This document shows, in pieces, positions 10,318-41,991 of a stretch of 64,000 nt of DNA. The position numbers and the translations under genes were made by a program. The stretch comes from Pseudomonadota bacterium (lineage in GTDB: Bacteria > Pseudomonadota > Gammaproteobacteria > Burkholderiales > Casimicrobiaceae). The notes under the pieces were generated by a model. The model saw only the letters and a program-made list of their open reading frames with translations, was not told the DNA's origin and did not search any database. The stretch covers positions 49,596 through 113,595 of the forward strand of contig JAFEDD010000023.1 of the NCBI GenBank assembly GCA_018241765.1, in the 5' to 3' direction. Each line of letters opens with the position of its first letter. Within the stretch, counting starts at the first letter, position 1.

Positions 10318-11730
10318 TCAAAACGATGCCGTCGAGCGCACCGACTGAATCGGCGTCGCGGCGCCGTAGGCTTCAGCCGACGCGTAATTCTCAAACCGCG
10401 TGAACTCGCCGCGGAAGGTCAGATTCACGGTGCCGATCGGCCCGTTGCGCTGCTTGCCGATGATGATCTCCGCCACGCCCTTCTGGGCCGATTCCTGGTT
10501 GTAGACCTCGTCGCGATAGATGAAGAGAATCACGTCGGCATCCTGCTCGATGGCGCCGGACTCGCGCAGGTCGCTCATGACCGGACGCTTGTTCGGGCGT
10601 TGTTCGAGAGATCGGTTGAGCTGCGACAGCGCGATCACCGGCACCTGAAGCTCCTTCGCGAGCGCTTTCAGCGAGCGTGAGATTTCGGAGATTTCGGTGG
10701 CCCTGTTTTCGCCACCGCTTGCGCTCTGCATCAGTTGGATGTAGTCGACGATGATGAGCCCGAGCCCGCCGACTTGCCGCGCCAGACGGCGGGCGCGTGC
10801 CCGCAGTTCGAAGGGGTTCAAGGCGGGCGTCTCGTCGATGTACATCGGGGAAGCATCGAGCTGCGACAGCGCTTCGGTGAAACGCGACCAGTCGCCCTCC
10901 GACAGCCGGCCCGTACGCAGCACGTGCTGGTCGAGTTTGCCGACCGAGCCGATCAAACGCATCGCGAGCTGCAAGGAGCCCATCTCCATCGAGAACACGG
11001 CGACTGGCTGCTTGAGCTTCACGGCCACGTGCTCGCCAATGTTGAGAGAAAACGCAGTCTTGCCCATCGAAGGGCGTCCGGCGACGATGACGAGGTCGCC
11101 GCGCTGCAACCCTGCCGTCATGCGGTCGAGATCGGCGTAGCCAGTCGCGATGCCGGTGACGTCACTCGGGTTTTCGCGTCGATAGAGCTCCTCGACACGT
11201 TCGATCGCCTGCGCCGTGAGGTCCGAAAGCGACACGAAGTTCTGCTTGCTGCGATCGCCGGACTCGGCGATTTCGAATACCTTGCCCTCGGCCTCGTCGA
11301 GCAGTTGCTCACTGCTGCGCCCCATCGGGTTGAACGCTGCCTCGGCGATCTCGGTGGCGACACCCGCGAGACGTCGCATCACCGAGCGATCGCGCACGAT
11401 TTCGGCGTAGCGCCGCACGTTCGCCGCCGTCGGAACCGCGTTGGCGATGGCGCCGATGTAGGCCAGGCCGCCGACGTAGTCGAGCTTGCCGGCCGCGCGA
11501 AGACTCTCGGCCACGGTCACCGCGTCGGCAGGATGATTGTCTGCGGCGAGCCGGTTGATATGTTCGTAGACGAGGCGGTGGCCTTCGTTGTAGAAATCCG
11601 CAGCGGACAACACGTCGGCCACGCGATCGATGGCGTTGTTGTCGATGATCAACGCGCCGAGCACCGACTGCTCGGCCTCGATCGAATGCGGCGGGATGCG
11701 CAGGGATTGAAGTTCGGTGTCGACAGCCAT
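10318..11730 (-). CDS. dnaB: Replicative DNA helicase
   Basis: PPHSIEAEQSVLG, Walker A AGRPSMGKT, IIVDYIQLM, LSQLNR, DLRESGAIEQDAD, KQRNGP; start placed at MAVDTELQ (11739 also possible). Confidence 0.97.
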   Translation of the reverse strand: MAVDTELQSLRIPPHSIEAEQSVLGALIIDNNAIDRVADVLSAADFYNEGHRLVYEHINRLAADNHPADAVTVAESLRAAGKLDYVGGLAYIGAIANAVPTAANVRRYAEIVRDRSVMRRLAGVATEIAEAAFNPMGRSSEQLLDEAEGKVFEIAESGDRSKQNFVSLSDLTAQAIERVEELYRRENPSDVTGIATGYADLDRMTAGLQRGDLVIVAGRPSMGKTAFSLNIGEHVAVKLKQPVAVFSMEMGSLQLAMRLIGSVGKLDQHVLRTGRLSEGDWSRFTEALSQLDASPMYIDETPALNPFELRARARRLARQVGGLGLIIVDYIQLMQSASGGENRATEISEISRSLKALAKELQVPVIALSQLNRSLEQRPNKRPVMSDLRESGAIEQDADVILFIYRDEVYNQESAQKGVAEIIIGKQRNGPIGTVNLTFRGEFTRFENYASAEAYGAATPIQSVRSTASF

Positions 11731-11880
11731 CTGCGGCATTTTATCGGGCGAGGCCGACCTCATGATCGATTGCGCGGCCCGAGCGACGGAGGGTATTCAC
11801 CGAGCACGATGCGTGTTAGGATGCCTCCGCCGTGCAAACGGCATGGACGAGGGTCGGGGCGACGTCGGATTGCCCGAATA

Positions 11881-11894
11881 TTGAACCACATCAA
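11881..11894 (+). promoter_or_regulatory. FNR/DNR/NnrR-type box upstream of the oxidase operon
   Basis: TTGAA-CCAC-ATCAA, one mismatch to TTGAT-N4-ATCAA. Confidence 0.7.
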
Positions 11895-12068
11895 ATCGTT
11901 TGCATTGCACGCTCAGCACAATAACGCCACTTGTGCCCTGCGTGTGCTGATCGCGCTGAAACTGCCGACCCTCGGTCGCCAGGATTTCATTGCGAGAGGC
12001 CACGCGGCGCGGCACACCACGATCGAAACCCATCCGCAAGGATGACGCATCACGAGGGAGAACCTACC

Positions 12069-12221
12069 ATGGACCACGACGACGAGAACGCACCCGTTCC
12101 CTTCATGCAACGGCTGCTCGACAGTCCGTTCATTCTGCTCTTTCTTGGAGTCACGATCCCGATGGTTCTCTACAACCTGTGGGGCGTCATCGAAATCCTC
12201 ATGCTGCCCACCACCAAATAG
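12069..12221 (+). CDS. Small single-TM subunit of the heme-copper oxidase (50 aa)
   Basis: RBS GAGGGAG; MDHDDENAPVPFMQRLLDSPFILLFLG...; first gene of the operon; start re-assigned from the 11931 ORF. Confidence 0.75.
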   Translation: MDHDDENAPVPFMQRLLDSPFILLFLGVTIPMVLYNLWGVIEILMLPTTK

Positions 12222-12233
12222 CGAGGTCGCACG

Positions 12234-12773
12234 ATGAGCGCCATTCTCCCCCCCGCAGAACGACTCTGGTACAAACACCCGATCGATCGCGTCGAAGGCA
12301 CCTGGATCACCATCGCGTTGGTCTGGTGTCTCATTCTGTTCTTCATGATGGTCGGCTGGCACATCTGGGGCAAACAGAACCTCTCCACCGAAACCTATCG
12401 CACGACGCCGGAACAGTTCATGACCAAGGCGGAAGCGGTTGCCGCCAAGTACACCGTGCGCACCGAGACCGAGCAAAACATCCCCGTCGTCGCGCCGCCG
12501 CCCGGCAGCGACGTCTACATGCTCGGACGTCTTTGGAACTTCTGGCCGATCCTCGAGCTGCAGAAAGACAAGACCTATCGCCTTCACCTGACGGCCATGG
12601 ACTACAACCACGGCTTCTCGTTGCAACCGGCGAACATCAACATCCAACTGGTGCCCGGCTTCGAGCACGTGGTGACGGTTACACCCAATCAGGCAGGCAC
12701 GTACTCGGTGGTCTGTAACGAATTCTGCGGCATCGGTCATCACCAGATGGTCGGGCGCATCTACGTCAAGTGA
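12234..12773 (+). CDS. Heme-copper oxidase subunit II (CuA), B-family-like, no heme c
   Basis: One TM helix; HGFS and CNEFCGIGHHQM CuA ligands. Confidence 0.92.
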   Translation: MSAILPPAERLWYKHPIDRVEGTWITIALVWCLILFFMMVGWHIWGKQNLSTETYRTTPEQFMTKAEAVAAKYTVRTETEQNIPVVAPPPGSDVYMLGRLWNFWPILELQKDKTYRLHLTAMDYNHGFSLQPANINIQLVPGFEHVVTVTPNQAGTYSVVCNEFCGIGHHQMVGRIYVK

Positions 12774-12783
12774 GGAAGCGGTC

Positions 12784-14481
12784 ATGAGCGCCACCACAAC
12801 CTACCGTACCTGCCCGCGCTCCGGGCTTCAGTTCGAAAATCAGGCCGAGAAGCTGATCAAGGCCAATGCCGTCATGGCCGTGCTCTGGCTCGCATTCGGC
12901 GGCATTCTTGCCATCGGCGTCGTGCTGACGCGTTGGCCCGCCATTCACTGGCTGCCGGCCGATACGTTCTACATGGTTCTGACCGCCCACGGCCTCGACA
13001 TGCTGATCTTCTGGATCATCTTCTTCGAGATCGCCGTGCTCTACTTCGCCTCCTCGACGCTGCTGCGATGCCGAATCGCGACGCCCAAGGTCGCGTGGCT
13101 CGCCTTTGGCCTGATGGTCATCGGCTCGATCATGAACAACGTCGCCGTCTTCCGCGGCGCGTCCAGCGTCATGATGACGTCGTACGTGCCGATGATGGCC
13201 GAACCCAGCTTCTACCTCGGCATCATCCTGTTCGCCGTGGGCGCGCTGATCGGCTGTTTCGTGTTCTTCGGCACCTTGGTCGTCGCCAAGCGCGAGAAAA
13301 CCTACGAAGGCTCGGTGCCGCTGGTCACGTTCGGCGCATTGACGGCCGCCATCATCGCGGTGTTCACACTGCTGTCGGGCGCGCTGATCATCGTTCCGGC
13401 GTGGCTGATGTCGCTTGCCGTCATGAACGTCGATCCGCTCATCTACCGTACCGTCTGGTGGGCTCTGGGGCACAGTTCGCAGCAAATCAACGTCGCCACG
13501 CACGTCTCGGTGTGGTATTTGGTCGCAGCCGTCGCACTGGGCGCCAAGCCCATGAGCGAACGCGTATCGCGCGTTGCGTTCCTCCTCTACATCCTGTTCC
13601 TGCAACTCGCCAGCGCGCACCATCTGCTGGCCGACCCTGGCGTCGGCACCGCGTGGAAGGTCGTGAACACGAGCTACTTCATGTACCTCGCCGTGCTCGC
13701 ATCGATGCTGCACGGACTGACCGTTCCCGGCGCGATGGAAGTCGCGCAGCGGCAGAAGGGTTACACCAAGGGATTGTTCGAGTGGCTGCGCAAGGCACCC
13801 TGGGGCAATCCGACGTTTGCCGGCGTGTTCATTTCGATCATCGGGTTCGGCTTCCTCGGCGGCATCACCGGCGTCATGATGGGTACCGAGCAGCTCAACC
13901 TGATCATCCACAACACCATCTACGTTCCGGGGCACTTCCACGCCACCGTCGTGGTGGGCACCACGCTCACCTTCATGGCGCTGACGTTCTACCTGATCCC
14001 GGTGCTGTTCAAGCGGGAAATGATTTCGCCCAAGCTCGCGCAGTGGCAGCCCTATCTGTTTGGCTTCTCGATGTACTTCTTCTGCCTCGTCATGATGGGC
14101 GCGGGAACACTCGGCGTATCACGGCGCCATTGGGACATGGCGTTCCAGGGCAACGCACTCGCCTACGAGTGGCCGGGTGCCGCGTACCTGATGATGGCAC
14201 TGGTGGGCATCGCTGGCGTTGCGGCCATTCTCGGCGGCATCATCTTCGTCTACATCACGGTGGGCTCGCTGTTGTGGGGACGAAAGCTCGAGCCGGGCAA
14301 GAGCAGTGCGGCGTTCACCCCCGTCCCGCGTGCGGCCCCGACCACGGCGGCCCAAACGTACGGATCGATGGGGTTTGCCGCACCGGGCACGTTCGCACTG
14401 GCCATGATCTTCCTCGTGGCGTTCGTGCTCTACTACTTCATCAACTGGAAGTATCTGTCGACCCTCTGGGGCCTCAGCTGA
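12784..14481 (+). CDS. Heme-copper oxidase subunit I, eNOR-like putative nitric oxide reductase
   Basis: Six His ligands (TAHG, GHSSQQ, SAHH, GHFH); His+4 position is Gln instead of the cross-linked Tyr of O2 reductases. Family membership is secure; the NOR function is inferred. Confidence 0.8.
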   Translation: MSATTTYRTCPRSGLQFENQAEKLIKANAVMAVLWLAFGGILAIGVVLTRWPAIHWLPADTFYMVLTAHGLDMLIFWIIFFEIAVLYFASSTLLRCRIATPKVAWLAFGLMVIGSIMNNVAVFRGASSVMMTSYVPMMAEPSFYLGIILFAVGALIGCFVFFGTLVVAKREKTYEGSVPLVTFGALTAAIIAVFTLLSGALIIVPAWLMSLAVMNVDPLIYRTVWWALGHSSQQINVATHVSVWYLVAAVALGAKPMSERVSRVAFLLYILFLQLASAHHLLADPGVGTAWKVVNTSYFMYLAVLASMLHGLTVPGAMEVAQRQKGYTKGLFEWLRKAPWGNPTFAGVFISIIGFGFLGGITGVMMGTEQLNLIIHNTIYVPGHFHATVVVGTTLTFMALTFYLIPVLFKREMISPKLAQWQPYLFGFSMYFFCLVMMGAGTLGVSRRHWDMAFQGNALAYEWPGAAYLMMALVGIAGVAAILGGIIFVYITVGSLLWGRKLEPGKSSAAFTPVPRAAPTTAAQTYGSMGFAAPGTFALAMIFLVAFVLYYFINWKYLSTLWGLS

Positions 14482-14519
14482 TTCCTTGACGTTGGTTCTG
14501 TGATGGAGAAGGATTCACC

Positions 14520-15413
14520 GTGAGCATGTCGCTTGCGCAGGGGGGACCTGCCGCGCCCACATGGCGTACCGTGGTCGGCATCTTCAAACTGCGCATCGGC
14601 GTGCTGATCATGCTCACGGCGCTCGCCGGGGCAGCCTTCTCCACCGCACCGGCGCCGGCGGCCTGGAAGGTCGCCCTCATGGCGCTGTGCGTCCTCGCCT
14701 CCTCGGCGGCGGCGGGTGCGTTCAATCAGTTCATCGAAGCGGACAGCGACCGCCTGATGAAGCGCACCCAGGGTCGCGCCTTCGCGACCGGAACGCTGAA
14801 GGCCGGGCCGTTCTGGCTCGGCATCATTCTTGTGCTGCTGGCCGCCGCCGTCGCAGCAACAGCATGGTTCATCAACGTAACGGCGGCGGTGTTTTTGTTC
14901 CTCGGCGCATTCACCTATGCGGTCGTCTACACCGTCGTACTCAAGCGCCGAACGTGGTGGAACATCGTCTTCGGTGGCGCTGCGGGCAGTTTCGCGGTGC
15001 TGACTGGCGCCGCAGCGGCCGATCCGTCGATCGGAGCATTGCCGGCGCTCTTTGCGCTCGTCTTGTTGCTCTGGACCCCCCCGCACTTCTGGAGCCTTGC
15101 CATTGCAACGCGCGATGACTATGCCGCCGCAGGCATTCCGATGCTACCGGTCGTCGTCGGCGTCGAGCGCGCCGCCCGCGTGGTCCATGGCAACGCAATC
15201 GCCCTGGTTGCGGCCTCGCTGTTGCCAGCGCTCTTTGGCGCCGGGCCCGCCTATCTGGTGGCCGCGATCGTCGGCGGCGGTTTCTTTCTGTATCGCACCC
15301 ATGCGCTTGCACGGCACCCGGAGCGGCGAACCGCGATGGCATCGTTCTTCGCCTCGATGCTGCAACTCGCCGCCTTGATCGTCGGAATCGTCGTCGATGC
15401 TGCCCTGCACTAG
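14520..15413 (+). CDS. cyoE: Protoheme IX farnesyltransferase (heme O synthase)
   Basis: GTG start; FKLRIG, FNQFIEADSDRLMKRT, YTVVLKRRT, WTPPHFWSLA..DDYAAAGIPMLP. Confidence 0.93.
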   Translation: MSMSLAQGGPAAPTWRTVVGIFKLRIGVLIMLTALAGAAFSTAPAPAAWKVALMALCVLASSAAAGAFNQFIEADSDRLMKRTQGRAFATGTLKAGPFWLGIILVLLAAAVAATAWFINVTAAVFLFLGAFTYAVVYTVVLKRRTWWNIVFGGAAGSFAVLTGAAAADPSIGALPALFALVLLLWTPPHFWSLAIATRDDYAAAGIPMLPVVVGVERAARVVHGNAIALVAASLLPALFGAGPAYLVAAIVGGGFFLYRTHALARHPERRTAMASFFASMLQLAALIVGIVVDAALH

Positions 15414-16398
15414 CAAACGGCCCATCTCCTCGCACGAAGGTGCGCAAGCTCGACTCGCTCTGCGCAGATCGGTCGCTCCACGCGACCAAACGGACGCCAC
15501 TGCGCCATCGAAGCATCGCGCCTGCGCCCCACGTACGCTCCTTCATGAGGCGGCTCGATTCGCGGCACTCATCGTTCTCGGCCTCACGGCCGGCTTCGTC
15601 AACGCGGCCATCGGCGATCGGCTCGATGAGCGCGCGGCGATGGCGGCGAGCCAGGCCGTCATCGGCACCATTCCGCCCGACTTTACGCTGCTCGATCGCA
15701 AGAACCGCCCCGTTCGCCTGTCGAGTTACCGTGGAAAGCCGTTGTTGATCAGCTTCATCTACACCGGCTGTTTCACCATTTGCCCGACGCAGACGCGCAT
15801 GCTGCAGGAGTCGCTGCGCGGACTCGAGCGCATGGGCGGTCTTGGCGACTTCAACGTCGTCAGCATCGGGTTCAACCAGCCGTTCGATTCGCCGCAGGCG
15901 TTGCGCGCCTTCGCCGCACAGAATCGTATCGATCAGGACAACTGGGAGTTTCTGAGCCCGCACCGAAACAACGTCGACGCGCTGACCCGCGCCTACGGCT
16001 TCACGTACGTCGAGACACCGGCGGGTTTTGACCATATCGTCGGAGTGACCCTGATCGATGCCGAGGGCCGCATTCACGCCCAGATCTATGGCAAGAACTT
16101 GACGGCCGAAAAACTCGGTGTGCCGCTCCGGCGCTTGGCGCTCAACGCCCCCCCCGAAATCGGCGGCCTGTCGTTCGACCAGGTGGTCGAACGCGTGCGC
16201 ATCCTGTGCACCGTCTACGACGCCGAGACAGGCGAATACCGGTACGACTGGAAGCTCTTCTTCGAAGTGTTCAGCGGCCTTTTGTTTTTCCTGACGGTCG
16301 GTATCTACTTCTGGCGCGAGTGGCAGAGCCAGCGGCGTGCACGCGCCGAGCGATCCACCGCCGCGGCCGTCAGCGGGACGCCTGCGCCAGAAGCGTGA
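15397..16398 (+). CDS. SCO1/SenC copper chaperone with C-terminal membrane extension (start uncertain)
   Basis: FIYTGCFTICP (CxxxC), FDHIVG conserved His, thioredoxin-like fold. Confidence 0.85.
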   Translation: MLPCTSKRPISSHEGAQARLALRRSVAPRDQTDATAPSKHRACAPRTLLHEAARFAALIVLGLTAGFVNAAIGDRLDERAAMAASQAVIGTIPPDFTLLDRKNRPVRLSSYRGKPLLISFIYTGCFTICPTQTRMLQESLRGLERMGGLGDFNVVSIGFNQPFDSPQALRAFAAQNRIDQDNWEFLSPHRNNVDALTRAYGFTYVETPAGFDHIVGVTLIDAEGRIHAQIYGKNLTAEKLGVPLRRLALNAPPEIGGLSFDQVVERVRILCTVYDAETGEYRYDWKLFFEVFSGLLFFLTVGIYFWREWQSQRRARAERSTAAAVSGTPAPEA

Positions 16399-17945
16399 GC
16401 CTCGCCGCCGCGCCGAAGTTGTGGCGCCGACTCGAACAGCTGCTCGACCGCGCGTTGGGTGCTCGCGCCAACCCCATCCGTCATCTCGGGGCGCTGGCAT
16501 TTCTCGCCTTCTGGTTGCTCGCGCTCAGCGGGCTGTGGCTGTATGCCGTACTCGACACATCAGCCAGCGGTGCGTATGCGTCGATCGAAGCGCTGTCCCG
16601 CGTGCCTTGGTCCATCGGCGGAGTACTTCGCAGCATGCACCGCTACGGAGCCGACGCTTTCGTGATGTTGACTGCGCTGCATCTGCTGCGCGAGCTCCTT
16701 CACGGACGCTTCCGCCACTTCCGCCGCTTCTCCTGGCTGACTGGCAGCGCGCTGCTGCCGATCATCGCGGTCAGTGCCGTCGGTGGCTTCTGGCTCAACT
16801 GGGATCGACTCGGCCAGTTCTCGGCCACCGCCACGGCGGAGTGGCTCGACGCGCTGCCACTCCTGGGTTCGACGTTGGCGCGCAATTTCCTGACGACGGC
16901 GAACGTCAGCGACCGTCTTTTTTCGCTGTTCGTGTTCGTGCACGTCGGAATGCCTTTGCTGCTCGTGTTTGGGCTTTGGTTTCATATTCAACGCATCACG
17001 CGCGCCGAGGTCTTTCCGCCACGGCCGCTCGCCGTTGGCTTTCTTGCCACGCTGCTCGCCCTGGCGCTCGCGCTTCCGATTCAGAGCCAGGGTCCGGCGC
17101 AATTGGCCAGCATTCCGCCATCGTTGGCGATCGACTGGTTCATTCTGTTCGCTCACCCGCTGATGTACGCCACGTCGGCCGGCCTCGTGTGGGCGATCGC
17201 GATGGTTGGGTTCCTGGCGCTGTTGTTGCTGCCGTTCGTGCCCACACGCATCGCCCGGCCCACCGTCGCCGTCGTTGACCCCGACAACTGCAGCGGCTGC
17301 CAGCGCTGTTTCGTGGACTGCCCCTATGCGGCCATCACCATGGCAGCGCACCCGAGCAAGCGCGCCGGCCATCAGATCGCGGTGGTCGATGTCGATCTCT
17401 GCGCCGGATGCGGCATCTGCGTCGGCGCGTGCCCCTCCTCGACGCCTTTCCGTCACATAGAGGAGTTGGTGACCGGCATCGACATGCCGCAACAAGCGCT
17501 GACCACGTTGCGCAGCGCGTTGCGCCAGCGTCTCCAGCAGCACGCGCAATCGAGCCCGCACGACGCGGCAGACACCGGGCCCATCGTCCTCTTTCGTTGT
17601 TCACAAGGCGCCGACGCTTCCGCCGAAACCGCCGGCGACGTCATCACGCTGCCGCTGATCTGCACCGGACAACTGCCGCCCTCGTTCATCGACTACGCGC
17701 TGCGTGACGGCGCGGCCGCGGTCGTCGTGGCCACCTGTCGCCTCAGTGGCTGCACCTACCGACTTGGTGCGCAGTGGACTTCCGAGCGCCTCAGCGGCGC
17801 ACGCGAACCCCACTTGCGCGCGGCCTACCGCGACGCTCCGAACGTCATGCTCATCGAGGCCGATGCCGGCGAAAACCGCGAGATCGACATGGGTTTGACG
17901 ACGATGCGGGCTCGATTGACGCAGTTCAAAGCAACATCCGTTTGA
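16395..17945 (+). CDS. Cytochrome b N-terminal domain fused to 2x[4Fe-4S] ferredoxin and MvhD/FlpD-like domain
   Basis: GTGA overlap start; two His pairs 14 residues apart (HRY..H, FVH..H); CSGCQRCFVDCP and CAGCGICVGACP; CTGQL...ATCRLSGCTY. Confidence 0.8.
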   Translation: MSLAAAPKLWRRLEQLLDRALGARANPIRHLGALAFLAFWLLALSGLWLYAVLDTSASGAYASIEALSRVPWSIGGVLRSMHRYGADAFVMLTALHLLRELLHGRFRHFRRFSWLTGSALLPIIAVSAVGGFWLNWDRLGQFSATATAEWLDALPLLGSTLARNFLTTANVSDRLFSLFVFVHVGMPLLLVFGLWFHIQRITRAEVFPPRPLAVGFLATLLALALALPIQSQGPAQLASIPPSLAIDWFILFAHPLMYATSAGLVWAIAMVGFLALLLLPFVPTRIARPTVAVVDPDNCSGCQRCFVDCPYAAITMAAHPSKRAGHQIAVVDVDLCAGCGICVGACPSSTPFRHIEELVTGIDMPQQALTTLRSALRQRLQQHAQSSPHDAADTGPIVLFRCSQGADASAETAGDVITLPLICTGQLPPSFIDYALRDGAAAVVVATCRLSGCTYRLGAQWTSERLSGAREPHLRAAYRDAPNVMLIEADAGENREIDMGLTTMRARLTQFKATSV

Positions 17946-17963
17946 CCGGCTAACATTCCATCC

Positions 17964-18512
17964 ATGGTTGAAGTTCCCTCGACCGCACCGCGTGCGGCAC
18001 CGGCGACTCGGCGCGGACCTGCCGCGTGGGTCGGCCAGATCATCCTCTACGGGCTGTTCGCCCTGACGATCGGTGTTTTCTCACACTGGCCGCCGTATCA
18101 CCATCTCTCCGGCGATGAGGCGCTCGTCAAGCTGAGCATCGTGCATGCGGGCAAACCGGTGAGCGACTGCCGCCAACGAACGCCGGAGGAACTGGCCAAA
18201 CTGCCGCCGAACATGCGTGCGGCAACCAATTGCCCGCGCGAACGTTCGCCGCTGGTGGTCGAACTCGACATCGACGGCAAGCCGGCCGCACGCATGAGTG
18301 CACCGCCATCCGGGCTCTCGCGTGACGGCGCCTCGGCGGTTTACCGCCGCCTGCCCGTCGCGGCGGGTGAGCGTGAGTTCGCGGTGCGCATGCGCGACAA
18401 CGCGCGCTCGGCCGGCTTCGACTACACGCTCGAACGCCGCGTCACGCTGAAGCCGGCGCAAGTGCTGGTCATCGATTTCGACCCGCACCGCGGCACGCTC
18501 ACGCTGCAATGA
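17964..18512 (+). CDS. Hypothetical membrane-anchored protein of the oxidase operon
   Basis: N-terminal TM segment, beta-rich soluble domain with two Cys; ATGA overlap with the next gene. Confidence 0.7.
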   Translation: MVEVPSTAPRAAPATRRGPAAWVGQIILYGLFALTIGVFSHWPPYHHLSGDEALVKLSIVHAGKPVSDCRQRTPEELAKLPPNMRAATNCPRERSPLVVELDIDGKPAARMSAPPSGLSRDGASAVYRRLPVAAGEREFAVRMRDNARSAGFDYTLERRVTLKPAQVLVIDFDPHRGTLTLQ

Positions 18513-19918
18513 GCCCCACCACGTCAACGCTGCGCGCCGAGGCGAGTTGGGCGCGCGCCCCGGCGAACTACGCGCTCCCCGTCGCGCGCGGACGCATCCC
18601 GCTGGCACGGGGCTGGCTTGCGCTGGCCCTTTGCGCACTGGTCGGCTCGGGGCTCTTCTCGGTGCTCCTGGTGTTCGCGCGCACACCGGGGCTTGCCAAC
18701 CATCTGCCGGGCGGAGACTTCTTTCGCACGGCACTCGTCGTCCACGTCGATCTCTCGGTGCTCGTGTGGTTCGTCGCCATCGCCGGGTTGCTCTGGAGCG
18801 TGTCGAGACGTGCGCAGGGCCGCGCGAGCCGAAGCGAATGGGCGGCGCTTGCACTTGCGGGGGCTGGCGCCACGTCGATGGCCGTCGCCCCCTTCATCGC
18901 GCCCGGCGCTCCGATCATGGCGAACTACGTGCCCGTCATCGAATCGATGCCGTTCATCGTGGGCCTGCTGGGCGTGGCCGCCGGTGGCGCCGTGTTGGTC
19001 GGACATGCGCTGTTCGCTGGTCCCGGACTGGGCGACGGTCTCGACGGTGCCGCGTCGCTTCGCTTCGGGCTTTGGTGTGCCGCAGCGTGCGGCGCCATCG
19101 CACTCTTCGCGTTCGCGCTGTCCACGGCGCTCGTCCCGCGCTCGCTGGAGAGCCGCGCGTACTGGGAAATCCTCTTCTGGGGCGGTGGCCACGCACTGCA
19201 ATTCACCTGGACGCTGCTGATGCTCGTGGGCTGGCTTTGGCTCGCGCAGGCTGCGGGAGCGCAACCGCCACTGAGCGCGCGAGTCACTCTGTTGCTGTTT
19301 GCCATCGCCTTTGTCGCCTCTTTCGTGACCCCCTGGGCCTATCTTGCCCATGAGGTCACGACGGTAGAACATCGTGAACTGCACACCTGGGGCATGCGCG
19401 TCGGCGGCGGCCTCGCCATTTTCCCGATCGCGCTGGCGGTGCTGCTCGCGCTCGTGCGCCAGCGTTCCGTCACGGCCGAAGCGCGGCCGTTGCGCGCCGC
19501 GCTCGTGACCTCGATCGGACTCTTCACGGCGGGCGGCCTGATCGGCCTCACGATCCAGGGCAGCAACGTGAAGATCCCGGCGCACTATCACGGTTGCATC
19601 GTCGGCGTCACACTCGCGTTGATGGGGCTTGTCTACCACCTGCTGCCACGGCTCGGTTATCGTGCGCCACAAGGCCGTCTCGCGGTCGCGCAGCCATGGT
19701 GTTACGGCATCGGGCAGTTGATGCACATCATCGGGCTCGTGTGGTCCGGCGGCTATGGCGTGCAACGCAAGGTGGCCGGCGCCGAGCAGGTGCTGCGCTC
19801 GCCCGGTGAAGTCTTTGGTATGGGTTTGATGGGCGCTGGCGGCGCCATCGCCATCGTCGGCGGCATGCTGTTCGCCGTCGTGGTGTGGCGCGCCATGCGC
19901 AATGGGAGTACACGATGA
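18509..19918 (+). CDS. Degenerate heme-copper oxidase subunit I-like membrane protein
   Basis: Multi-TM; retains VVHVD, FWGGGHALQF and PAHYHG but no adjacent HH pair. Confidence 0.7.
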   Translation: MSPTTSTLRAEASWARAPANYALPVARGRIPLARGWLALALCALVGSGLFSVLLVFARTPGLANHLPGGDFFRTALVVHVDLSVLVWFVAIAGLLWSVSRRAQGRASRSEWAALALAGAGATSMAVAPFIAPGAPIMANYVPVIESMPFIVGLLGVAAGGAVLVGHALFAGPGLGDGLDGAASLRFGLWCAAACGAIALFAFALSTALVPRSLESRAYWEILFWGGGHALQFTWTLLMLVGWLWLAQAAGAQPPLSARVTLLLFAIAFVASFVTPWAYLAHEVTTVEHRELHTWGMRVGGGLAIFPIALAVLLALVRQRSVTAEARPLRAALVTSIGLFTAGGLIGLTIQGSNVKIPAHYHGCIVGVTLALMGLVYHLLPRLGYRAPQGRLAVAQPWCYGIGQLMHIIGLVWSGGYGVQRKVAGAEQVLRSPGEVFGMGLMGAGGAIAIVGGMLFAVVVWRAMRNGSTR

Positions 19919-21840
19919 ACCTTAGCCCCCGACGCCTGCTGCGTTCGGCGTTCATGGCGGCCGAGGCCGTGTTCAACCGCGCGTTCGGCGACAAGCTCAA
20001 CCCGTTCTATCACCTCGGGTCGCTGACCTTCTTTCTGTTCTGGATCGTCGCCGGAACCGGCCTCTACCTGTACGCCTTCTTCGACACCAGCGTGGAAGGC
20101 GCCTATCGCTCGGTCGAGGCGCTGACCACGAAGCAATGGTTCGCCGGCGGCATCATCCGCAGCGTGCACCGCTACTCCTCGGACGCCATGGTCGTGACCA
20201 TGGTGATCCATCTGCTTCGCTACTGGGCCTACGACCGCATGCGCGGCTTCCGCTGGTTGTCGTGGATTACCGGCGTCGTGCTGGTCTGGCTCGTGTTCGC
20301 GGCTGGCGTCAACGGCTACATGCTGCCGTGGGACAAGCTGGCGCAGTTCGTCACGCAGGCGAGTTTCGAATGGATCGACTGGCTGCCGGGCTTCGGCGGC
20401 ACGCTGATCCGAAACTTCATGACCGACGCCGCCGTCAGCAACCGACTCTTCTCGCTGCTCGTGTTCATTCACATCGGCGTGCCGCTGGTTACGTTGCTCG
20501 TGATGTGGGTTCACGTGCAGCGGGTGCCGAAGGCAACGACGATTCCGCCGCGACAGGTCGCCATTGCGGTGGGCATCATGCTCGTGCTGCTCGCGCTGGT
20601 TCGTCCGGTCATGAGCCAGGGCGGCCCCGCCCAACTCGCCGTGGCGCCACAGACGCTGTCGTTCGACTGGTTCCTGCTCGCTCTCTATCCACTCGTCTAC
20701 CTGTGGCCGATCGGAGCGGTCTGGGCGTTCGTGCTCGGATTCTCCGCGCTGCTCGCGGCCGCGCCTTGGGTGCCACCGCGCCGCGGTGGTGGTGCAGGGA
20801 AGCGCGTCACCTATCACCCGGGGTCGCATACCCTGCCAGCGCGCACCGGCGAGACGCTGCTCGAAGCGGGCCTGCGTGCCGGCCTCGCGCTGCCCTACGA
20901 CTGCCGCGCCGGTGGCTGCGGTGTCTGCGTGTGCACGGTGCTCAACGGTCGCGTCGATCACGGCGCCTACCAACCCGCAGCGCTGACCGAAGCCATGCGC
21001 GCGCGCGGGCAGACGCTCATGTGCTGCGCGGTGCCGCTCGACGATGTCGAACTCGAAGTCGAGCATGTTGCGTCGCTGACCGACGCCAGTGCGCCCGTCG
21101 TTCGCTATCAGGGCCGCGTCGAGCGCATGGAGCGCTTGGCACCGGAGGTGATGCGGCTTTGGGTCACCCTGCCGGCCGGCCAGCGCATCGAGTTCGAGGC
21201 GGGTCAATACATCAACATCATTCTCGACGACGGCCCGCGCCGCGCGTTCTCGTTCGCCAACACGCCGGGCAACAACGAGCAGATCGAGCTGCACGTGCGG
21301 CGCATTCCGGGCGGGCGCTTCACCACCCACGTCTTCGACGGCATGAAACCGGGCGACACGCTCGATTTCGAAGGCCCGATCGGCCGCTTCACGCTGCGCG
21401 ACAGCAACCGCCCCATTTTGTTCATCGCCGGCGCCACGGGGTTCGCACCGATCAAGAGCATCGTCGAGGACGCCTTCCAGCGCGGCATCGATCGGCCGAT
21501 GTGGCTCTATTGGGGCGTGCGCAAGCGCGACGATCTCTACATGGCGAGCCTCGCCGAGCAGTGGGCGAGCGAGCACCCGAATTTCCTGTTCGTCCCCGTG
21601 CTTTCAGATGCCGACGACGACGTCACGTGGACTGGCCGACGCGGCCTCGTGCATGAGGCATTGCTGGCCGACCACCCGAACCTGACCGGTTTCGAGGTCT
21701 ACGCCTGTGGCTCGACGCGCATGGTGGAGGCTGCCGTGCCTGACTTCATCGCGCACGGCCTGGGTGAGCAATTCTGCTTCTCGGACGCGTTCACGCCAAG
21801 CCGCCCGACTCCGCCGTCGACGCCGGCCTCGAGCGCGTGA
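19915..21840 (+). CDS. Cytochrome b N-terminal domain fused to [2Fe-2S] ferredoxin and FAD/NAD(P) reductase domain
   Basis: ATGA overlap start after GGGAG; four heme His; CRAGGCGVC...C; RAFSFAN, AGATGFAP, YACGS. Confidence 0.85.
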   Translation: MNLSPRRLLRSAFMAAEAVFNRAFGDKLNPFYHLGSLTFFLFWIVAGTGLYLYAFFDTSVEGAYRSVEALTTKQWFAGGIIRSVHRYSSDAMVVTMVIHLLRYWAYDRMRGFRWLSWITGVVLVWLVFAAGVNGYMLPWDKLAQFVTQASFEWIDWLPGFGGTLIRNFMTDAAVSNRLFSLLVFIHIGVPLVTLLVMWVHVQRVPKATTIPPRQVAIAVGIMLVLLALVRPVMSQGGPAQLAVAPQTLSFDWFLLALYPLVYLWPIGAVWAFVLGFSALLAAAPWVPPRRGGGAGKRVTYHPGSHTLPARTGETLLEAGLRAGLALPYDCRAGGCGVCVCTVLNGRVDHGAYQPAALTEAMRARGQTLMCCAVPLDDVELEVEHVASLTDASAPVVRYQGRVERMERLAPEVMRLWVTLPAGQRIEFEAGQYINIILDDGPRRAFSFANTPGNNEQIELHVRRIPGGRFTTHVFDGMKPGDTLDFEGPIGRFTLRDSNRPILFIAGATGFAPIKSIVEDAFQRGIDRPMWLYWGVRKRDDLYMASLAEQWASEHPNFLFVPVLSDADDDVTWTGRRGLVHEALLADHPNLTGFEVYACGSTRMVEAAVPDFIAHGLGEQFCFSDAFTPSRPTPPSTPASSA

Positions 21841-22829
21841 CGCCAACTGGCGGCACGCGCGGACCCTACCCGCCCAACGTGGACCCCGCGCGCCTCCGGC
21901 TGCTGCGCCGCTGCGCCATGCTGGGTGCGCTGCTGGTCGCCGCGGTCATCGGTCTCAGTGCCTTCATGCGACTGTCGGCCAGCGGACTCGACTGTCCGAC
22001 ATGGCCGAGCTGTTACGGTGAAGCGCTGCAACGAGCGCAGGCCGGCATGGCACCCGCGACGACGCCGAGCGAGGGTGTCGCGCTGGCTCGCATGGCGCAC
22101 CGCCTGCTGGCGATGGCCTTGCTGCCGCTCGCTCTGCTGCTCGCCTTCGCCGGTTTGACCGTACGCCCGCAGCCGTGGCGAGGGCGCTGGCACACGCTTG
22201 CCGCGTTGGCGCTCATCGTGTTCCTCGCCGCACTCGGGCGGGCAACGGCGGATGCGCGACTGCCGATCGTCACCATCGGAAATCTGCTCGGTGGCTTCGT
22301 GCTGTTCGCGCTGTTTTGGCGCATGGCCGCGCTCGCCACGACGACGCAACCGCCCGTGCTGCGCTGGCGGATGTGGCCGCTCCTCGCACTGCTCGCGCTC
22401 GTCATCGAGATCACGCTGGGCGCCATGGTGAGTGGCGGCTACGCGGCGCTCAGTTGCCTGTCGCTGACCGACTGCGCCAACGCGTGGTCGCAGCCCCTGG
22501 CCACGCTCGATCCGTGGCGCGAGCCGCGCTTCACGACGCTCGCCACACCCATCCACGCCGAAGGCGCGCTCTCGCATGTCCTGCATCGCTACGCGGCGCT
22601 CATCTGCACGGTGCTGCTGTGCGCCGCGGCGCTGTCGCTGCGACGTGACGGGAGAACGCGAGACGCGCTCGCCATCGTCGCGCTGACCGCGCTCGTCGTG
22701 GCACTCGGCATCGCGAGCGTCGCCGCCGGCATGCCGCTCTTCGTCGTGCTGCTGCACAACCTCGCAAGCGCCCTGCTGCTCGCCGTGACGGTCAACGCCG
22801 TGCGCGGCGCCGACGCCATCAGCCGCTGA
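21837..22829 (+). CDS. COX15/CtaA-family heme A synthase-like protein (variant)
   Basis: GLDCPTWPSCYG, AHR, LHRY, LHN motifs; helix-4 His position reads N (IGNLLGG). Confidence 0.8.
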   Translation: MTPTGGTRGPYPPNVDPARLRLLRRCAMLGALLVAAVIGLSAFMRLSASGLDCPTWPSCYGEALQRAQAGMAPATTPSEGVALARMAHRLLAMALLPLALLLAFAGLTVRPQPWRGRWHTLAALALIVFLAALGRATADARLPIVTIGNLLGGFVLFALFWRMAALATTTQPPVLRWRMWPLLALLALVIEITLGAMVSGGYAALSCLSLTDCANAWSQPLATLDPWREPRFTTLATPIHAEGALSHVLHRYAALICTVLLCAAALSLRRDGRTRDALAIVALTALVVALGIASVAAGMPLFVVLLHNLASALLLAVTVNAVRGADAISR

Positions 22830-26203: not shown

Positions 26204-27001
26204 ATGAACTTGAAAACAAATGCATTGGTGACGTTGTTCATGGTGGTCGCCATGGCGGCTGCCGCGGCCGATCGCGCCGATCCGCCGGGCCGCGTCGCCT
26301 CCGCCGGCGCGCCGCCCACACCCGAAGCGCTCGGCAGCCTCACGGCGGACTTGGTGTTCACCCCGATGACCCCTTGCCGCATCGTCGATACTCGTCTGAC
26401 GGGGTCCGGCGCCTTGAATGCCAACAGCACCCGCAACTTCCTCGCGCTCAACGCTGCCAATTTTTCCAGTCAGGGCGGATCGAGCAGCAACTGTGGGACC
26501 CTTGGGTTGAATGGCGGCGGCGTTGTGCTGGTCGTCACGGCGATCACGCCCAGCGCGGCCGGGTACGCCACGCTCCACGCATATGGCTCATCGACGCCCG
26601 CCACCGTGAACCTCCAATACGCCGCCGGCGCCATCCAGTCGGGCAGCCAGCTGGTGCAAATTCCGAACCCGCTGTCGTCGTACGATTTCACCCTCTACAC
26701 GTCCGCACAATCGCACTTCACGATCGACTTCGTAGGCTATTTCGCGCCACCCGTGGCCACTGCGCTCGCGTGCTCGGACACCAGCAACACGGTGGCATCG
26801 GTCGCCGCTGGGGGCTCCGCCAACGTGAACGCTCCTCTCTGCCCCGCGGGCTTCACGCCCACGGCAACCAATTGCGAAAGCGGCACCTGGGAGATGCCGC
26901 TGGTGTTCTTTCATGGCGGGACGTGTTCGGCGAAAAACAACGGCGCAGCGCCCGCTGAGCTGCGCGCGTCGCGCACGTGCTGCCGCGTGCCCGGCCGTTG
27001 A
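26204..27001 (+). CDS. Exported hypothetical protein with PCRIVDTR motif and Cys-rich C-terminus
   Basis: RBS GAGAGGA; signal peptide; FTPMTPCRIVDTR; DFVGYF; seven further Cys. Confidence 0.75.
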   Translation: MNLKTNALVTLFMVVAMAAAAADRADPPGRVASAGAPPTPEALGSLTADLVFTPMTPCRIVDTRLTGSGALNANSTRNFLALNAANFSSQGGSSSNCGTLGLNGGGVVLVVTAITPSAAGYATLHAYGSSTPATVNLQYAAGAIQSGSQLVQIPNPLSSYDFTLYTSAQSHFTIDFVGYFAPPVATALACSDTSNTVASVAAGGSANVNAPLCPAGFTPTATNCESGTWEMPLVFFHGGTCSAKNNGAAPAELRASRTCCRVPGR

Positions 27002-27015
27002 GACCGCCGCAACCC

Positions 27016-40253: not shown

Positions 40254-40300
40254 GCGGTGGGCTGGATGCTGGAGGCGGCCCCGCGTGGATAATCCCGCGC

Positions 40301-41958: not shown

Positions 41959-41991
41959 GCGAAGCGCGATGCCGCGGGCTGCGGCACGGCA

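What the first reader, a model, noticed from the sequence alone, without database searches (positions are those of the whole stretch)
11881..14481. Heme-copper oxidase with Tyr-to-Gln active site: eNOR-like NO reductase under an FNR-type box
Seen: subunit I helix VI reads WWALG-H-SSQ-Q, where B-family O2 reductases have H-P-x-V-Y. All six His ligands are kept, subunit II has CuA, and a near-consensus FNR box lies ~175 bp upstream. Established: the His-Tyr cross-link is required for O2 reduction, and Gln at this position is the reported hallmark of the eNOR family derived from B-family oxidases. Inference: automated pipelines would call this cytochrome c oxidase, but it probably reduces NO to N2O, a hidden denitrification step. 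No nir or nos genes are in this window.
Basis: partly seen in the sequence, partly recalled or inferred. Interest (0 to 1): 0.62.

Follow-up and report, generated by a model that had tools for sequence, protein, structure and literature searches.

The report
Mislabelled eNOR-type nitric oxide reductase operon
A gene pair that databases call a cytochrome c oxidase is almost certainly an eNOR-family nitric oxide reductase (NO to N2O) in a wastewater Burkholderiales bacterium; the family is already known, so this is a correct call, not a new kind of enzyme.

Summary
Subunit I (12784-14481) reads W226-W-A-L-G-H230-S-S-Q-Q234. Q234 aligns with the cross-linked Tyr237 of Thermus ba3 oxidase. All six metal/heme His residues are kept, and subunit II has a full CuA site.

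An H-x-x-Q-Q clade is monophyletic in my tree (92% bootstrap). It includes haloarchaeal, Chloroflexi and Thermus members; the Thermus copy has the His/Lys heme variant and lies beside nirS. It separates from the canonical GHPxVY B-family oxidases. This matches the published eNOR diagnostic.

The TTGAA-N4-ATCAA box alone is not significant within the window. However, a TTGA-N6-TCAA core recurs at the same place in 33 of 79 orthologous loci, against 0.8% of background windows. A -10 element follows at class II spacing (-41.5). A DNR-like regulator in about 23 of 80 loci, and nirS in 12 or more, lie within 10 kb.

The genes form one operon of 11 genes (12069-22829) with heme o and heme a synthases, SCO, two cytochrome b fusion proteins and a second, altered HCO-like gene. 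Sludge metatranscriptomes contain it. A 2026 preprint describes the same operon type in Ferrigenium.

Verdict: interpretation supported; a new member of a known kind. NO reductase activity is inferred, not shown.

The parts
11881..11894 (.). CRP/FNR-family (FNR/DNR-type) binding box, TTGAACCACATCAA
   Evidence: It has one mismatch to the consensus. A box with at most 2 mismatches sits at the equivalent place in 61 loci. The TTGA-N6-TCAA core occurs in 33 of 79 loci, against 0.76% of background 250-bp windows and 0.09 of 79 in shuffles.
11917..11922 (+). Predicted -10 element (CACAAT); predicted transcription start near 11929, which places the box centre at -41.5 (class II geometry)
   Evidence: Across the 61 loci with a box, A+T content peaks at 0.72-0.80 at positions +24 and +26 to +28 after the box, typically as cAGAAT. 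The start site is inferred, not mapped.
12069..12221 (+). Conserved 50-aa single-helix membrane protein; probable third (small) eNOR subunit
   Evidence: Orthologous ORFs with the motif LLDxPFLLLFLGV...P..Y..WGV.(D/E)IL..P lie directly upstream of subunit II in nearly all loci inspected. The same ORF occurs in Thermus, Thermomicrobium and Defluviimonas. It has no Pfam family.
12234..12773 (+). eNOR subunit II: N-terminal membrane helix plus periplasmic cupredoxin with a CuA site (H126, C161, C165, H169, M172); E21 matches ba3 subunit II Glu15
   Evidence: Pfam COX2. The alignment to ba3 subunit II scores 5.5e-14. The E21 = Glu15 match was made by eye against the ba3 subunit II sequence recalled from memory.
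12784..14481 (+). eNOR subunit I (565 aa, about 13 membrane helices)
   Evidence: Pfam COX1 at 3.3e-62. The best solved relatives are the B-family ba3 oxidases: sequence E 1e-41 to 3.5e-45 and fold TM-score 0.76-0.78. It belongs to the QQ clade.
13471..13485 (+). Codons for H230-S-S-Q233-Q234: the metal-B ligand His, with Gln in place of the cross-linked Tyr
   Evidence: Q233 and Q234 are 100% invariant in 30 diverse clade members.
14520..15413 (+). Heme o synthase (CtaB/CyoE)
   Evidence: TIGR01473 at 8e-73, above its cut-off. Syntenic in 67 of 80 loci.
15397..16398 (+). SCO1/SenC copper chaperone
   Evidence: Pfam SCO1-SenC at 2.7e-14. Syntenic in 71 of 80 loci.
16395..17945 (+). Fusion protein: cytochrome b, two [4Fe-4S] motifs and a FlpD/MvhD-like domain
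   Evidence: Pfam Cytochrome_B, Fer4 and FlpD. The GTG start overlaps the SCO stop as GTGA. Syntenic in 68 of 80 loci. Also present in the Defluviimonas plasmid operon.
17964..18512 (+). Conserved membrane-anchored 182-aa protein of unknown function
   Evidence: No Pfam or NCBIfam match. Syntenic in 66 of 80 loci.
18509..19918 (+). Second HCO subunit-I-like protein (469 aa) with an altered metal-B site and no Tyr
   Evidence: Pfam COX1 at 6.5e-16. The profile-profile match to the eNOR family has probability 99.7% and E 4e-27. It pairs H228 with H230, Q231 with Q233, F232 with Q234, A280-H281 with H279-H280, and H359/H361 with H384/H386. The predicted fold has pLDDT 87 and TM-score up to 0.74 to ba3. 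Full orthologues (at least 50% identity over at least 80% of the length) lie in 56 of the 80 loci.
19915..21840 (+). Fusion protein: cytochrome b, [2Fe-2S] ferredoxin, FAD-binding and NAD(P)H-binding domains
   Evidence: Pfam Cytochrome_B, Fer2, FAD_binding_6 and NAD_binding_1. The reductase part is BenC-like at 8e-59. ATG 19915 overlaps the upstream stop as ATGA. Syntenic in 68 of 80 loci.
21837..22829 (+). Heme a synthase (CtaA/COX15)
   Evidence: Pfam COX15-CtaA at 2.5e-33. It overlaps the previous gene as GTGA. In 41 of 80 related loci ctaA lies next to the operon instead, usually divergently upstream.

Best explanation
Genes 12069-14481 encode a three-subunit, CuA-dependent nitric oxide reductase of the eNOR family (2 NO + 2 e- + 2 H+ -> N2O + H2O).

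Proposed mechanism:
- Electrons enter from a periplasmic donor at CuA in subunit II.
- They pass through the low-spin heme (H69/H386) to a binuclear centre. This centre is the high-spin heme (H384) plus a metal bound by H230, H279 and H280.
- The His-Tyr cofactor needed for four-electron O2 reduction is absent (Q234), so the site is suited to two-electron NO chemistry.
- A K-channel-like row of polar residues (subunit II E21; subunit I Y245, S258, S307, H310, T313) could bring protons from the cytoplasm and make the reaction electrogenic.

The enzyme is made from one translationally coupled operon of 11 genes (12069-22829). The operon also supplies heme o and heme a synthases and a copper chaperone. 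It is probably activated from a class II promoter by a CRP/FNR-family regulator, FNR-like or DNR-like, when O2 is low and/or NO is present.

Shown here: the sequence features, clade membership, synteny, promoter conservation and in-situ transcription.

Inferred: NO reductase activity, the identity of metal B, the heme type, proton uptake, the regulator and the physiological role.
For: Active site. Q234 aligns with ba3 Y237. H-x-x-Q-Q, E82 and N236 are 100% invariant in 30 diverse clade members, whereas canonical B-family proteins have V-Y, I and W at those positions.

Family diagnostic. A conserved Gln at the Tyr site is the published eNOR criterion (PMC8756737).

Phylogeny. The QQ clade is monophyletic at 92% bootstrap and the canonical B family at 100%. 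The clade holds a haloarchaeon, Chloroflexi including Ardenticatenales, and a Thermus plasmid copy. The Thermus copy reads GHFK in helix X, which is the His/Lys low-spin heme variant that Murali et al. report for some eNORs.

Family size. At least 596 species genomes carry such genes, against 547 eNOR genomes in GTDB in PMC11214002.

Biochemistry of a family member. R. marinus eNOR reduces NO and not O2, contains heme As, and many eNOR operons carry ctaA (PMC11214002). Here ctaB and ctaA are in the operon.

K-channel residues are kept.

Genomic context in relatives with 79-91% identical subunit I:
- nirS within 10 kb in at least 12 of 80 loci.
- nirE immediately upstream in L078.
- A regulator whose best solved match is P. 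aeruginosa DNR (2e-37) within 10 kb in about 23 of 80 loci.
- In Thermus TF24 the genes lie 3.5 kb from nirS, with an Rrf2 regulator downstream.

Promoter. Both the box and the -10 spacing are conserved.

Expression. Four sludge metatranscriptome runs contain the operon, with the highest contig depth over subunits II and I.

Independent report. The same operon type in Ferrigenium straubiae has its subunits in the proteome, and eNOR I/II are the most abundant HCO transcripts under denitrifying Fe(II) oxidation (preprint 10.64898/2026.01.22.701106).
Against: - No enzyme of this proteobacterial subclade has been assayed.
- The one characterised eNOR is slow (0.68 NO per second) and only distantly related.
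- I could not retrieve its sequence, so it is not in my tree.
- The tree is neighbour-joining on about 30 sequences, without A-family, C-family, cNOR or sNOR outgroups.
- The nearest Tyr-bearing group (H-x-x-Q-Y, 36-44% identical) is about as similar to the window protein as the most distant QQ members (39-46%).
- No nir, nor, nos or CRP/FNR-family gene lies in the 64-kb window, so the role in this organism is open.
- The RNA evidence comes from unstranded contigs under unknown conditions.
- ctaA needs O2, so the enzyme cannot mature under strict anoxia.
Confidence: 0.8

Rival explanations
1. It is a genuine B-type terminal oxidase for microaerobic respiration. It would reduce O2 without the canonical Tyr and be induced by FNR in the way cbb3 oxidases are.
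For: - The closest solved folds and sequences are ba3 O2 reductases.
- It keeps CuA, all six His and a K-channel.
- Heme a synthesis genes in the operon need O2.
- FNR-type boxes also drive high-affinity oxidases (PMC6446978).
Against: - The His-Tyr cofactor is required for O2 reduction in all HCO oxidases.
- Q234 is invariant, and the C-family position for a relocated Tyr (six residues before the HH pair) is Leu273.
- R. marinus eNOR showed no O2 reduction with several donors (PMC11214002).
- The association with nirS and a DNR-like regulator fits NO better.
Confidence: 0.06
2. The Gln-type centre does other small-molecule chemistry (for example NO dismutation, or reduction of N2O, nitrite or peroxide). 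Alternatively it serves mainly in NO detoxification driven by NAD(P)H, through the co-encoded cytochrome b fusion proteins and the second HCO-like protein, and not in respiratory denitrification.
For: - Eight genes (subunit II to the cytochrome b-[2Fe-2S]-FAD-NAD(P)H fusion), including that fusion, a cytochrome b-[4Fe-4S] fusion and a second HCO-like protein, are each found in 66-78 of 80 loci (full HCO-like orthologues in 56).
- The window has no nir or nos genes.
- The Defluviimonas operon ends with a hemerythrin.
- The measured turnover of R. marinus eNOR is low.
Against: - N2O was the measured product of R. marinus eNOR.
- nirS and nirE adjacency in relatives points to the nitrite-to-NO-to-N2O sequence.
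- Thermus, Thermomicrobium and haloarchaeal members lack the extra module, so it is an accessory and not the catalytic core.
Confidence: 0.12
3. It is a decaying or non-catalytic oxidase paralogue that lost its Tyr by drift.
For: Loss of an essential catalytic residue is what a pseudo-enzyme would show.
Against: - There are about 120 invariant positions across phyla, including all metal ligands.
- Subunit I is 79-91% identical across 80 species genomes, with conserved synteny.
- It is transcribed in situ.
- The protein was detected in Ferrigenium.
Confidence: 0.02

Closest known systems
eNOR family of heme-copper NO reductases (Hemp & Gennis 2008; Murali et al. 2024, PMC11214002; R. marinus enzyme; M. 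magnetotacticum 'cytochrome a1-like' hemoprotein)
   Same: - Gln replaces the cross-linked Tyr.
- Three His ligands for metal B and two heme sites are kept.
- Subunit II carries CuA.
- K-channel-like residues are present.
- ctaB and ctaA are linked to the operon.
- The family spans haloarchaea, Chloroflexi, Thermus and Proteobacteria.
- Databases mislabel it as an oxidase.
   Different: - This Burkholderiales/Xanthomonadales subclade (H-S-S-Q-Q) is only 39-46% identical to the haloarchaeal, Thermus and Chloroflexi members in my set.
- It is embedded in a longer operon of 11 genes.
- No activity, heme or metal data exist for it.
Ferrigenium straubiae eNOR operon (preprint 10.64898/2026.01.22.701106)
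   Same: The gene set matches: eNOR II and I, heme o synthase, sco1, a cytochrome b-FeS-FAD-NADH protein, a cytochrome b-FeS protein and a protein of unknown function. The preprint reports it expressed, and the proteins detected, under denitrifying conditions.
   Different: - The preprint calls the two cytochrome b genes unusual and possible Ferrigenium markers. Here each of the two is found in 68 of the 80 nearest species genomes, across several orders.
- In this window ctaA is the last gene of the operon.
- As far as I read it, the preprint does not describe the small first ORF, the class II CRP/FNR promoter or the altered second HCO-like gene.
B-family O2 reductases (T. thermophilus and A. 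aeolicus ba3; PDB 1EHK, 1XME, 7DEG)
   Same: - Same fold (TM-score 0.76-0.78).
- CuA subunit II.
- A single K-type channel: S261, S309, T315 and Y248 of ba3 correspond to S258, S307, T313 and Y245.
- A small third membrane subunit.
   Different: - Y237 becomes Q234 and V236 becomes Q233.
- W239 becomes N236, T312 becomes H310 and Y244 becomes V241.
- A buried Glu (E82) stands where all the B-family proteins have Ile.
- Sequence identity is only about 25-33%.
Archaeal H-x-x-Q-Y group (P0131, P0132 Hodarchaeales, P0136 Thermoproteota, P0148); possibly the 'K-family' O2 reductases that preprint 10.1101/592808 places next to eNOR
   Same: It shares E82, Q233, N236 and H310 with the window protein and is 36-44% identical to it.
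   Different: It keeps Tyr at the cross-link position, so it presumably reduces O2. It falls outside the QQ clade in the tree. Equating it with the K-family is my inference.
cNOR and qNOR (NorBC, NorZ)
   Same: Same superfamily and the same proposed reaction. They also lack the Tyr cofactor.
   Different: [quoted passage not shown]
- They have Glu at the +4 position as a fourth ligand of FeB.
- They take electrons from cytochrome c or quinol, and have no CuA.
- They have no cytoplasmic proton channel.
- For the second HCO-like gene, cNOR and qNOR structures rank only 44th to 49th in the fold search; none appears among the 50 listed matches of subunit I.

Membership tests
eNOR (HCO-superfamily NO reductase) | Conserved Gln at the position of the cross-linked active-site Tyr in helix VI | tested here: met
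   Q234 aligns with ba3 Y237. It is invariant in 30 and in 40 family members. The criterion is stated in PMC8756737.
eNOR (HCO-superfamily NO reductase) | HCO subunit I with three metal-B His and three heme-ligand His | tested here: met
   H230, H279 and H280 for metal B; H69, H384 and H386 for the hemes. Pfam COX1 at 3.3e-62.
eNOR (HCO-superfamily NO reductase) | No alternative Tyr that could form the cofactor | tested here: inconclusive
   The C-family position for a relocated Tyr is Leu273. Y63, Y134, Y144 and Y245 are also present in Tyr-bearing oxidases. The clade-typical Y221, Y298 and Y301 lie toward the periplasmic ends of their helices. Murali et al. report no such Tyr for these families.
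eNOR (HCO-superfamily NO reductase) | Cupredoxin subunit II with a CuA site, encoded directly upstream | tested here: met
   H126, C161, C165, H169 and M172.
eNOR (HCO-superfamily NO reductase) | Conserved K-channel-like polar residues | tested here: met
   S258, S307, T313 and Y245 align with ba3 S261, S309, T315 and Y248. H310 replaces T312. S307 and H310 are 100% invariant in the clade.
eNOR (HCO-superfamily NO reductase) | Phylogenetic clustering with recognised eNORs, apart from the O2 reductases | tested here: met
   QQ-clade bootstrap is 92%. The clade holds haloarchaeal, Chloroflexi and Thermus (His/Lys variant) members. Caveats: the R. marinus reference is absent, and the tree is neighbour-joining only.
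eNOR (HCO-superfamily NO reductase) | Heme a-type (As) cofactors, with ctaA often in the operon | tested here: inconclusive
   ctaB and ctaA are in the operon. The heme actually bound cannot be read from sequence.
eNOR (HCO-superfamily NO reductase) | Reduces NO to N2O and does not reduce O2 | not testable with these tools
   Shown only for R. marinus eNOR (PMC11214002). It needs an enzyme assay.
B-family heme-copper O2 reductase (ba3 type) | His-Tyr cross-link motif G-H-P-x-V-Y in helix VI | tested here: not met
   The window has G-H-S-S-Q-Q. All 10 B-family representatives have H-[PA]-x-V-Y, nine of them H-P-x-V-Y.
cNOR/qNOR | Glu at +4 from the helix VI His as the FeB ligand; a cytochrome c or quinol donor domain and no CuA | tested here: not met
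   The +4 residue is Gln, and subunit II carries CuA. The definition of the cNOR feature comes from PMC11214002 and from my own knowledge of NorB E211.
Class II FNR/DNR-dependent promoter | A TTGAT-N4-ATCAA-like palindrome centred near -41.5, with a -10 element and no good -35 | tested here: inconclusive
   The box and the -10 spacing are conserved in 61 loci. No sigma-70 -35/-10 pair was found. Neither the transcription start nor regulator binding was measured.

The most novel reading that the evidence does not exclude
In Burkholderiales and Xanthomonadales the eNOR would be the terminal part of a self-contained respiratory module of 11 genes under DNR/FNR control. In this module a second HCO paralogue has one metal-B His replaced, no Tyr and extra conserved His and Glu residues. 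Two cytochrome b fusion proteins, one with [4Fe-4S] and an MvhD-like domain and one with [2Fe-2S], FAD and NAD(P)H domains, would couple the cytoplasmic NAD(P)H or quinol pool directly to NO reduction. Alternatively they would supply the long-sought bacterial electron donor for O2-dependent heme a synthesis by CtaA. Only one 2026 preprint mentions part of this module, and it treats it as a Ferrigenium peculiarity.
Probability: 0.3. Interest if true: 0.65.

Novelty: new member of a known kind. Interest (0 to 1): 0.4.

Why it matters
- eNOR genes are routinely annotated as cytochrome c oxidases. As a result, N2O-producing capacity is under-counted in exactly the wastewater and soil Burkholderiales that dominate nitrogen removal.
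- At least 596 species genomes carry this gene type. The 80 closest include cultured strains (Castellaniella defragrans, Piscinibacter caeni, Curvibacter, Pollutimonas, Simplicispira) in which the function could be tested genetically.
- No eNOR structure turned up in my sequence and fold searches of the PDB.
- A cytoplasmic proton channel would make this the energy-conserving step of denitrification.
- The conserved accessory genes and the DNR-type promoter give concrete handles on how the enzyme is supplied with electrons and hemes under microoxic conditions.

Tried and rejected
1. Second FNR-like site at 19718-19731 (TTGATGCACATCAT). In 60 orthologous loci the same stretch varies only at codon wobble positions. 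It encodes the invariant L-M-H406-I of the HCO-like protein, so it is a coding coincidence and not a regulatory box.

2. Retrieving the R. marinus eNOR sequence as a tree anchor. The genome scan returned only the 80 closest relatives. A homologue search seeded with the Thermomicrobium protein returned Chloroflexi only. No supplementary files of PMC11214002 are held.

3. Mapping the transcription start from RNA. Only unstranded assembled contigs are available, and they span the intergenic region (11758-12366; two begin at about 11840). This may reflect the divergent dnaB transcript or DNA carry-over, so it is not informative.

4. Small ORF frame error. I first took the small ORF at 12070, which is off by one base. 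This gave a wrong-frame query. It was corrected to 12069-12221 and re-scanned. The conservation analysis was anchored on stop codons and is unaffected.

5. Weak Pfam 'Cytochrom_D1' hit at 26977-28416. This is a YncE-like beta-propeller repeat protein with no heme c motif, not NirS.

6. Family libraries. NCBIfam and Pfam gave nothing for the 182-aa protein, and Pfam nothing for the small ORF. NCBIfam also gave nothing for the second HCO-like protein. The NCBIfam scan of the small ORF used the wrong frame and was not repeated.


Full report
**What is there.** The window is from a Rubrivivax-like Burkholderiales genome from wastewater. Its subunit I is 100% identical to proteins of a 'MAG: Burkholderiales bacterium' and about 90% identical to Rubrivivax MAG proteins. 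All of these are named 'cbb3-type cytochrome c oxidase subunit I' or 'cytochrome c oxidase subunit 1'.

On the + strand, after the divergent dnaB gene (10318-11763), lies a run of genes with short gaps or 4-nt start/stop overlaps:
- a 50-aa membrane ORF (12069-12221)
- subunit II (12234-12773)
- subunit I (12784-14481)
- heme o synthase (14520-15413)
- an SCO chaperone (15397-16398)
- a cytochrome b / 2x[4Fe-4S] / FlpD-like fusion (16395-17945)
- a 182-aa unknown protein (17964-18512)
- a second COX1-like protein (18509-19918)
- a cytochrome b / [2Fe-2S] / FAD / NAD(P)H fusion (19915-21840)
- heme a synthase CtaA (21837-22829)

**The observation.**
- Helix VI reads W226-W-A-L-G-H230-S-S-Q233-Q234. 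In the ungapped HMMER alignment to T. thermophilus ba3 oxidase, H233-P-I-V-Y237 pairs with H230-S-S-Q-Q234.
- The six His (H69, H230, H279, H280, H384, H386) are present and conserved.
- Subunit II keeps the CuA ligands H126, C161, C165, H169 and M172.
- B-family representatives read G-H-P-x-V-Y.
- The box TTGAACCACATCAA is at 11881-11894, 174 nt before the first ATG.

**Which family.** A search of 1.84 billion cluster representatives gave three tiers of full-length relatives.
- H-x-x-Q-Q proteins: P0121 at 53% identity, and P0127 at 39%, which comes from the haloarchaeon Natrarchaeobius.
- H-x-x-Q-Y proteins from archaea, at 36-44%.
- Canonical G-H-P-x-V-Y B-family oxidases, at 29-33%.

Plasmid records added three more H-x-x-Q-Q members: Defluviimonas (61%), Thermomicrobium roseum (45%) and T. 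thermophilus megaplasmids (45-46%).

The Thermus copy has Lys in place of the second low-spin heme His (GHFK). Murali et al. describe this variant for some eNORs.

In a neighbour-joining tree with 200 bootstraps, the Q-Q sequences form one clade (92%) and the canonical B family another (100%). The Q-Y sequences lie nearby, outside the Q-Q clade.

Across 30 diverse Q-Q members, Q233, Q234, N236, E82, S307 and H310 are invariant. E82, Q233, N236 and H310 are shared with the Q-Y group and are absent from nearly all the canonical B-family proteins (H310 occurs in one of ten, P0186). The decisive difference from the nearest Tyr-bearing relatives is therefore Y to Q at position 234.

The published diagnostic for eNOR is exactly this conserved Gln (PMC8756737). 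A preprint from the same school states that eNOR clusters with a 'K-family' of O2 reductases (10.1101/592808). The Q-Y group may be that family; this is my inference.

The genome scan found at least 596 species genomes with such genes. This is the same order as the 547 eNOR genomes counted in GTDB by Murali et al..

The closest solved structures are ba3 oxidases (TM-score 0.76-0.78). No eNOR structure appeared among the matches in the PDB copy searched.

**Function.** The R. marinus eNOR reduces NO to N2O, does not reduce O2, carries heme As, and needs microoxic conditions. Many eNOR operons include ctaA (PMC11214002). The window operon carries both ctaB and ctaA.

The K-channel residues of ba3 are kept or conservatively changed (S258, S307, T313, Y245; H310 in place of T312). 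The subunit II glutamate at the channel entrance has a counterpart, E21. That correspondence rests on my recollection of the ba3 subunit II sequence.

Context in relatives is informative. Among 80 species genomes whose subunit I is 79-91% identical:
- A bona fide nirS (about 49% identical to Thermus NirS) lies within 10 kb in at least 12, and NirN/NirF-like paralogues in 8 more.
- In L078 the operon directly follows nirE and a divergent nirS.
- In Thermus TF24 the three eNOR genes lie 3.5 kb from nirS and are followed by an Rrf2-type regulator.

Ferrigenium straubiae has the same operon type. Its eNOR subunits and both cytochrome b proteins were found in the proteome under denitrifying Fe(II) oxidation (preprint 10.64898/2026.01.22.701106).

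The window itself holds no nir, nor, nos or nar gene among the ORFs scanned.

**Regulation.** In the window alone the box is not significant: 2 one-mismatch sites against 0.53 expected. In orthologous loci, however, a site with at most 2 mismatches lies upstream of subunit II in 61 loci, mostly 235-360 nt upstream.

The TTGA-N6-TCAA core occurs there in 33 of 79 loci. The comparison values are 0.76% of background 250-bp windows and 0.09 of 79 in shuffles.

An A+T-rich hexamer, typically cAGAAT and CACAAT in the window at 11917-11922, follows at +23 to +28 after the box. This puts the box centre at -41.5 from the predicted start near 11929, which is the class II geometry of FNR/CRP-family activators. 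No sigma-70 -35/-10 pair is present.

In about 23 of 80 loci a CRP/FNR-family gene lies within 10 kb, often next to ctaA. Its best solved match is P. aeruginosa DNR (2e-37), and it lacks the N-terminal Cys cluster of FNR.

So 'FNR-type box' is right as a class, but the cognate regulator may be NO-responsive and DNR-like. FNR and DNR motifs are too alike to separate by sequence (PMC8510549). An FNR motif was also predicted upstream of the Accumulibacter 'ba3' operon (PMC6446978). No such regulator gene is in the window.

**Operon and expression.** Synteny from subunit II through the cytochrome b-FAD fusion holds for most loci. By tblastn, 66-78 of the 80 loci hold each gene; a full orthologue of the second HCO-like gene was recovered in 56. 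An alternative internal gene order occurs in about ten loci.

The small first ORF is conserved across phyla and has no Pfam family. It is probably a third subunit, analogous to ba3 subunit IIa.

Four metatranscriptome runs from one sludge sample contain the operon at 97% identity or better. Contigs cover 11758-16817, with the highest depth over subunits II and I (47-227, against 5-20 for dnaB). This shows transcription in situ. It gives neither strand nor growth conditions.

**The second HCO-like gene.** The 469-aa protein is a true HCO fold (pLDDT 87; TM-score up to 0.74 to ba3). It aligns to the eNOR profile with probability 99.7%.

It keeps the helix II, VI and X His residues (H79, H228, H359, H361). 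It has Ala-His in place of the helix VII His-His pair, Phe at the Tyr/Gln position, and further invariant residues (H288, H406, Y278). E287 is conserved at 97% or more across the 56 orthologues but is not invariant in the 34-sequence set.

More than 5000 relatives exist. All are named oxidase subunit I or hypothetical. Its role is unknown.

**Verdict.** This is a member of a family described in 2008 and validated biochemically in 2024, and a 2026 preprint describes the same operon in a related lineage. It is therefore a new member of a known kind.

What remains open is the activity of this subclade, the identity of metal B and of the hemes, the regulator, and the role of the conserved accessory module.

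Noticed in passing
window 18509-19918 (+): A second heme-copper-oxidase subunit-I-like gene lies in the same operon. It keeps the heme His residues and one helix VI His. It has Ala-His in place of the helix VII His-His pair, Phe at the Tyr/Gln position, and extra invariant residues (H288, H406). It has no cupredoxin partner of its own. More than 5000 relatives exist, all annotated as oxidase subunit I or hypothetical.
   Followed up: partly
window 16395-17945 and 19915-21840 (+): Two di-heme cytochrome b fusion proteins, one with 2x[4Fe-4S] plus a FlpD/MvhD-like domain and one with [2Fe-2S] plus FAD and NAD(P)H domains, are each found next to the eNOR genes in 68 of 80 related genomes. A 2026 Ferrigenium preprint calls them unusual and proposes a quinol:NAD+ oxidoreductase. 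An electron supply to CtaA or to eNOR is equally open.
   Followed up: partly
window 12069-12221 (+): A 50-aa single-helix ORF is the first gene of the operon. It is conserved from Thermus and Thermomicrobium to Proteobacteria and has no Pfam family. It is probably a small eNOR subunit.
   Followed up: yes
window 17964-18512 (+): A conserved 182-aa membrane-anchored protein with two Cys residues and no family match. It is syntenic in 66 of 80 loci and also present in the Defluviimonas plasmid operon. It may be the 'eNOR scaffold protein of unknown function' mentioned in the Ferrigenium preprint.
   Followed up: no
window 19718-19731: A second near-consensus FNR-like site (TTGATGCACATCAT) lies inside the HCO-like gene. 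It is conserved only because it encodes L-M-H406-I, so it is a coding coincidence.
   Followed up: yes
L082 (T. thermophilus TF24 plasmid pTF24b) 11283-14140: A Thermus eNOR-type gene trio whose low-spin heme ligand His is replaced by Lys (GHFK). It lies 3.5 kb from nirS and cytochrome c552 and is followed by an Rrf2-family (NsrR-like) regulator. It is annotated as a ba3-type oxidase.
   Followed up: partly
proteins P0172, P0191, P0199 (Dehalococcoidia and metagenomes): A separate group of HCO relatives (100% bootstrap). It reads F-H-x-x-H-Y in helix VI, L-Y-H-L in place of the His-His pair, and Tyr in place of the high-spin heme His in helix X. This is an odd active site and I did not pursue it.
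   Followed up: no
proteins P0131, P0132, P0136, P0148 (archaeal): An H-x-x-Q-Y group shares E82, Q233, N236 and H310 with eNOR but keeps the Tyr. It is a natural comparison set for what turns an O2 reductase into an NO reductase, differing at a single active-site residue.
   Followed up: partly
L020 2636-3322 (-) and about 22 other loci: A DNR-like CRP/FNR-family regulator gene sits next to ctaA and the eNOR operon in many relatives but is absent from this 64-kb window.
   Followed up: partly
window 40001-42000: A local G+C peak (0.735) with strong A-over-T skew (0.22), just downstream of an ECF sigma factor gene (40211-40888). The cause was not examined.
   Followed up: no
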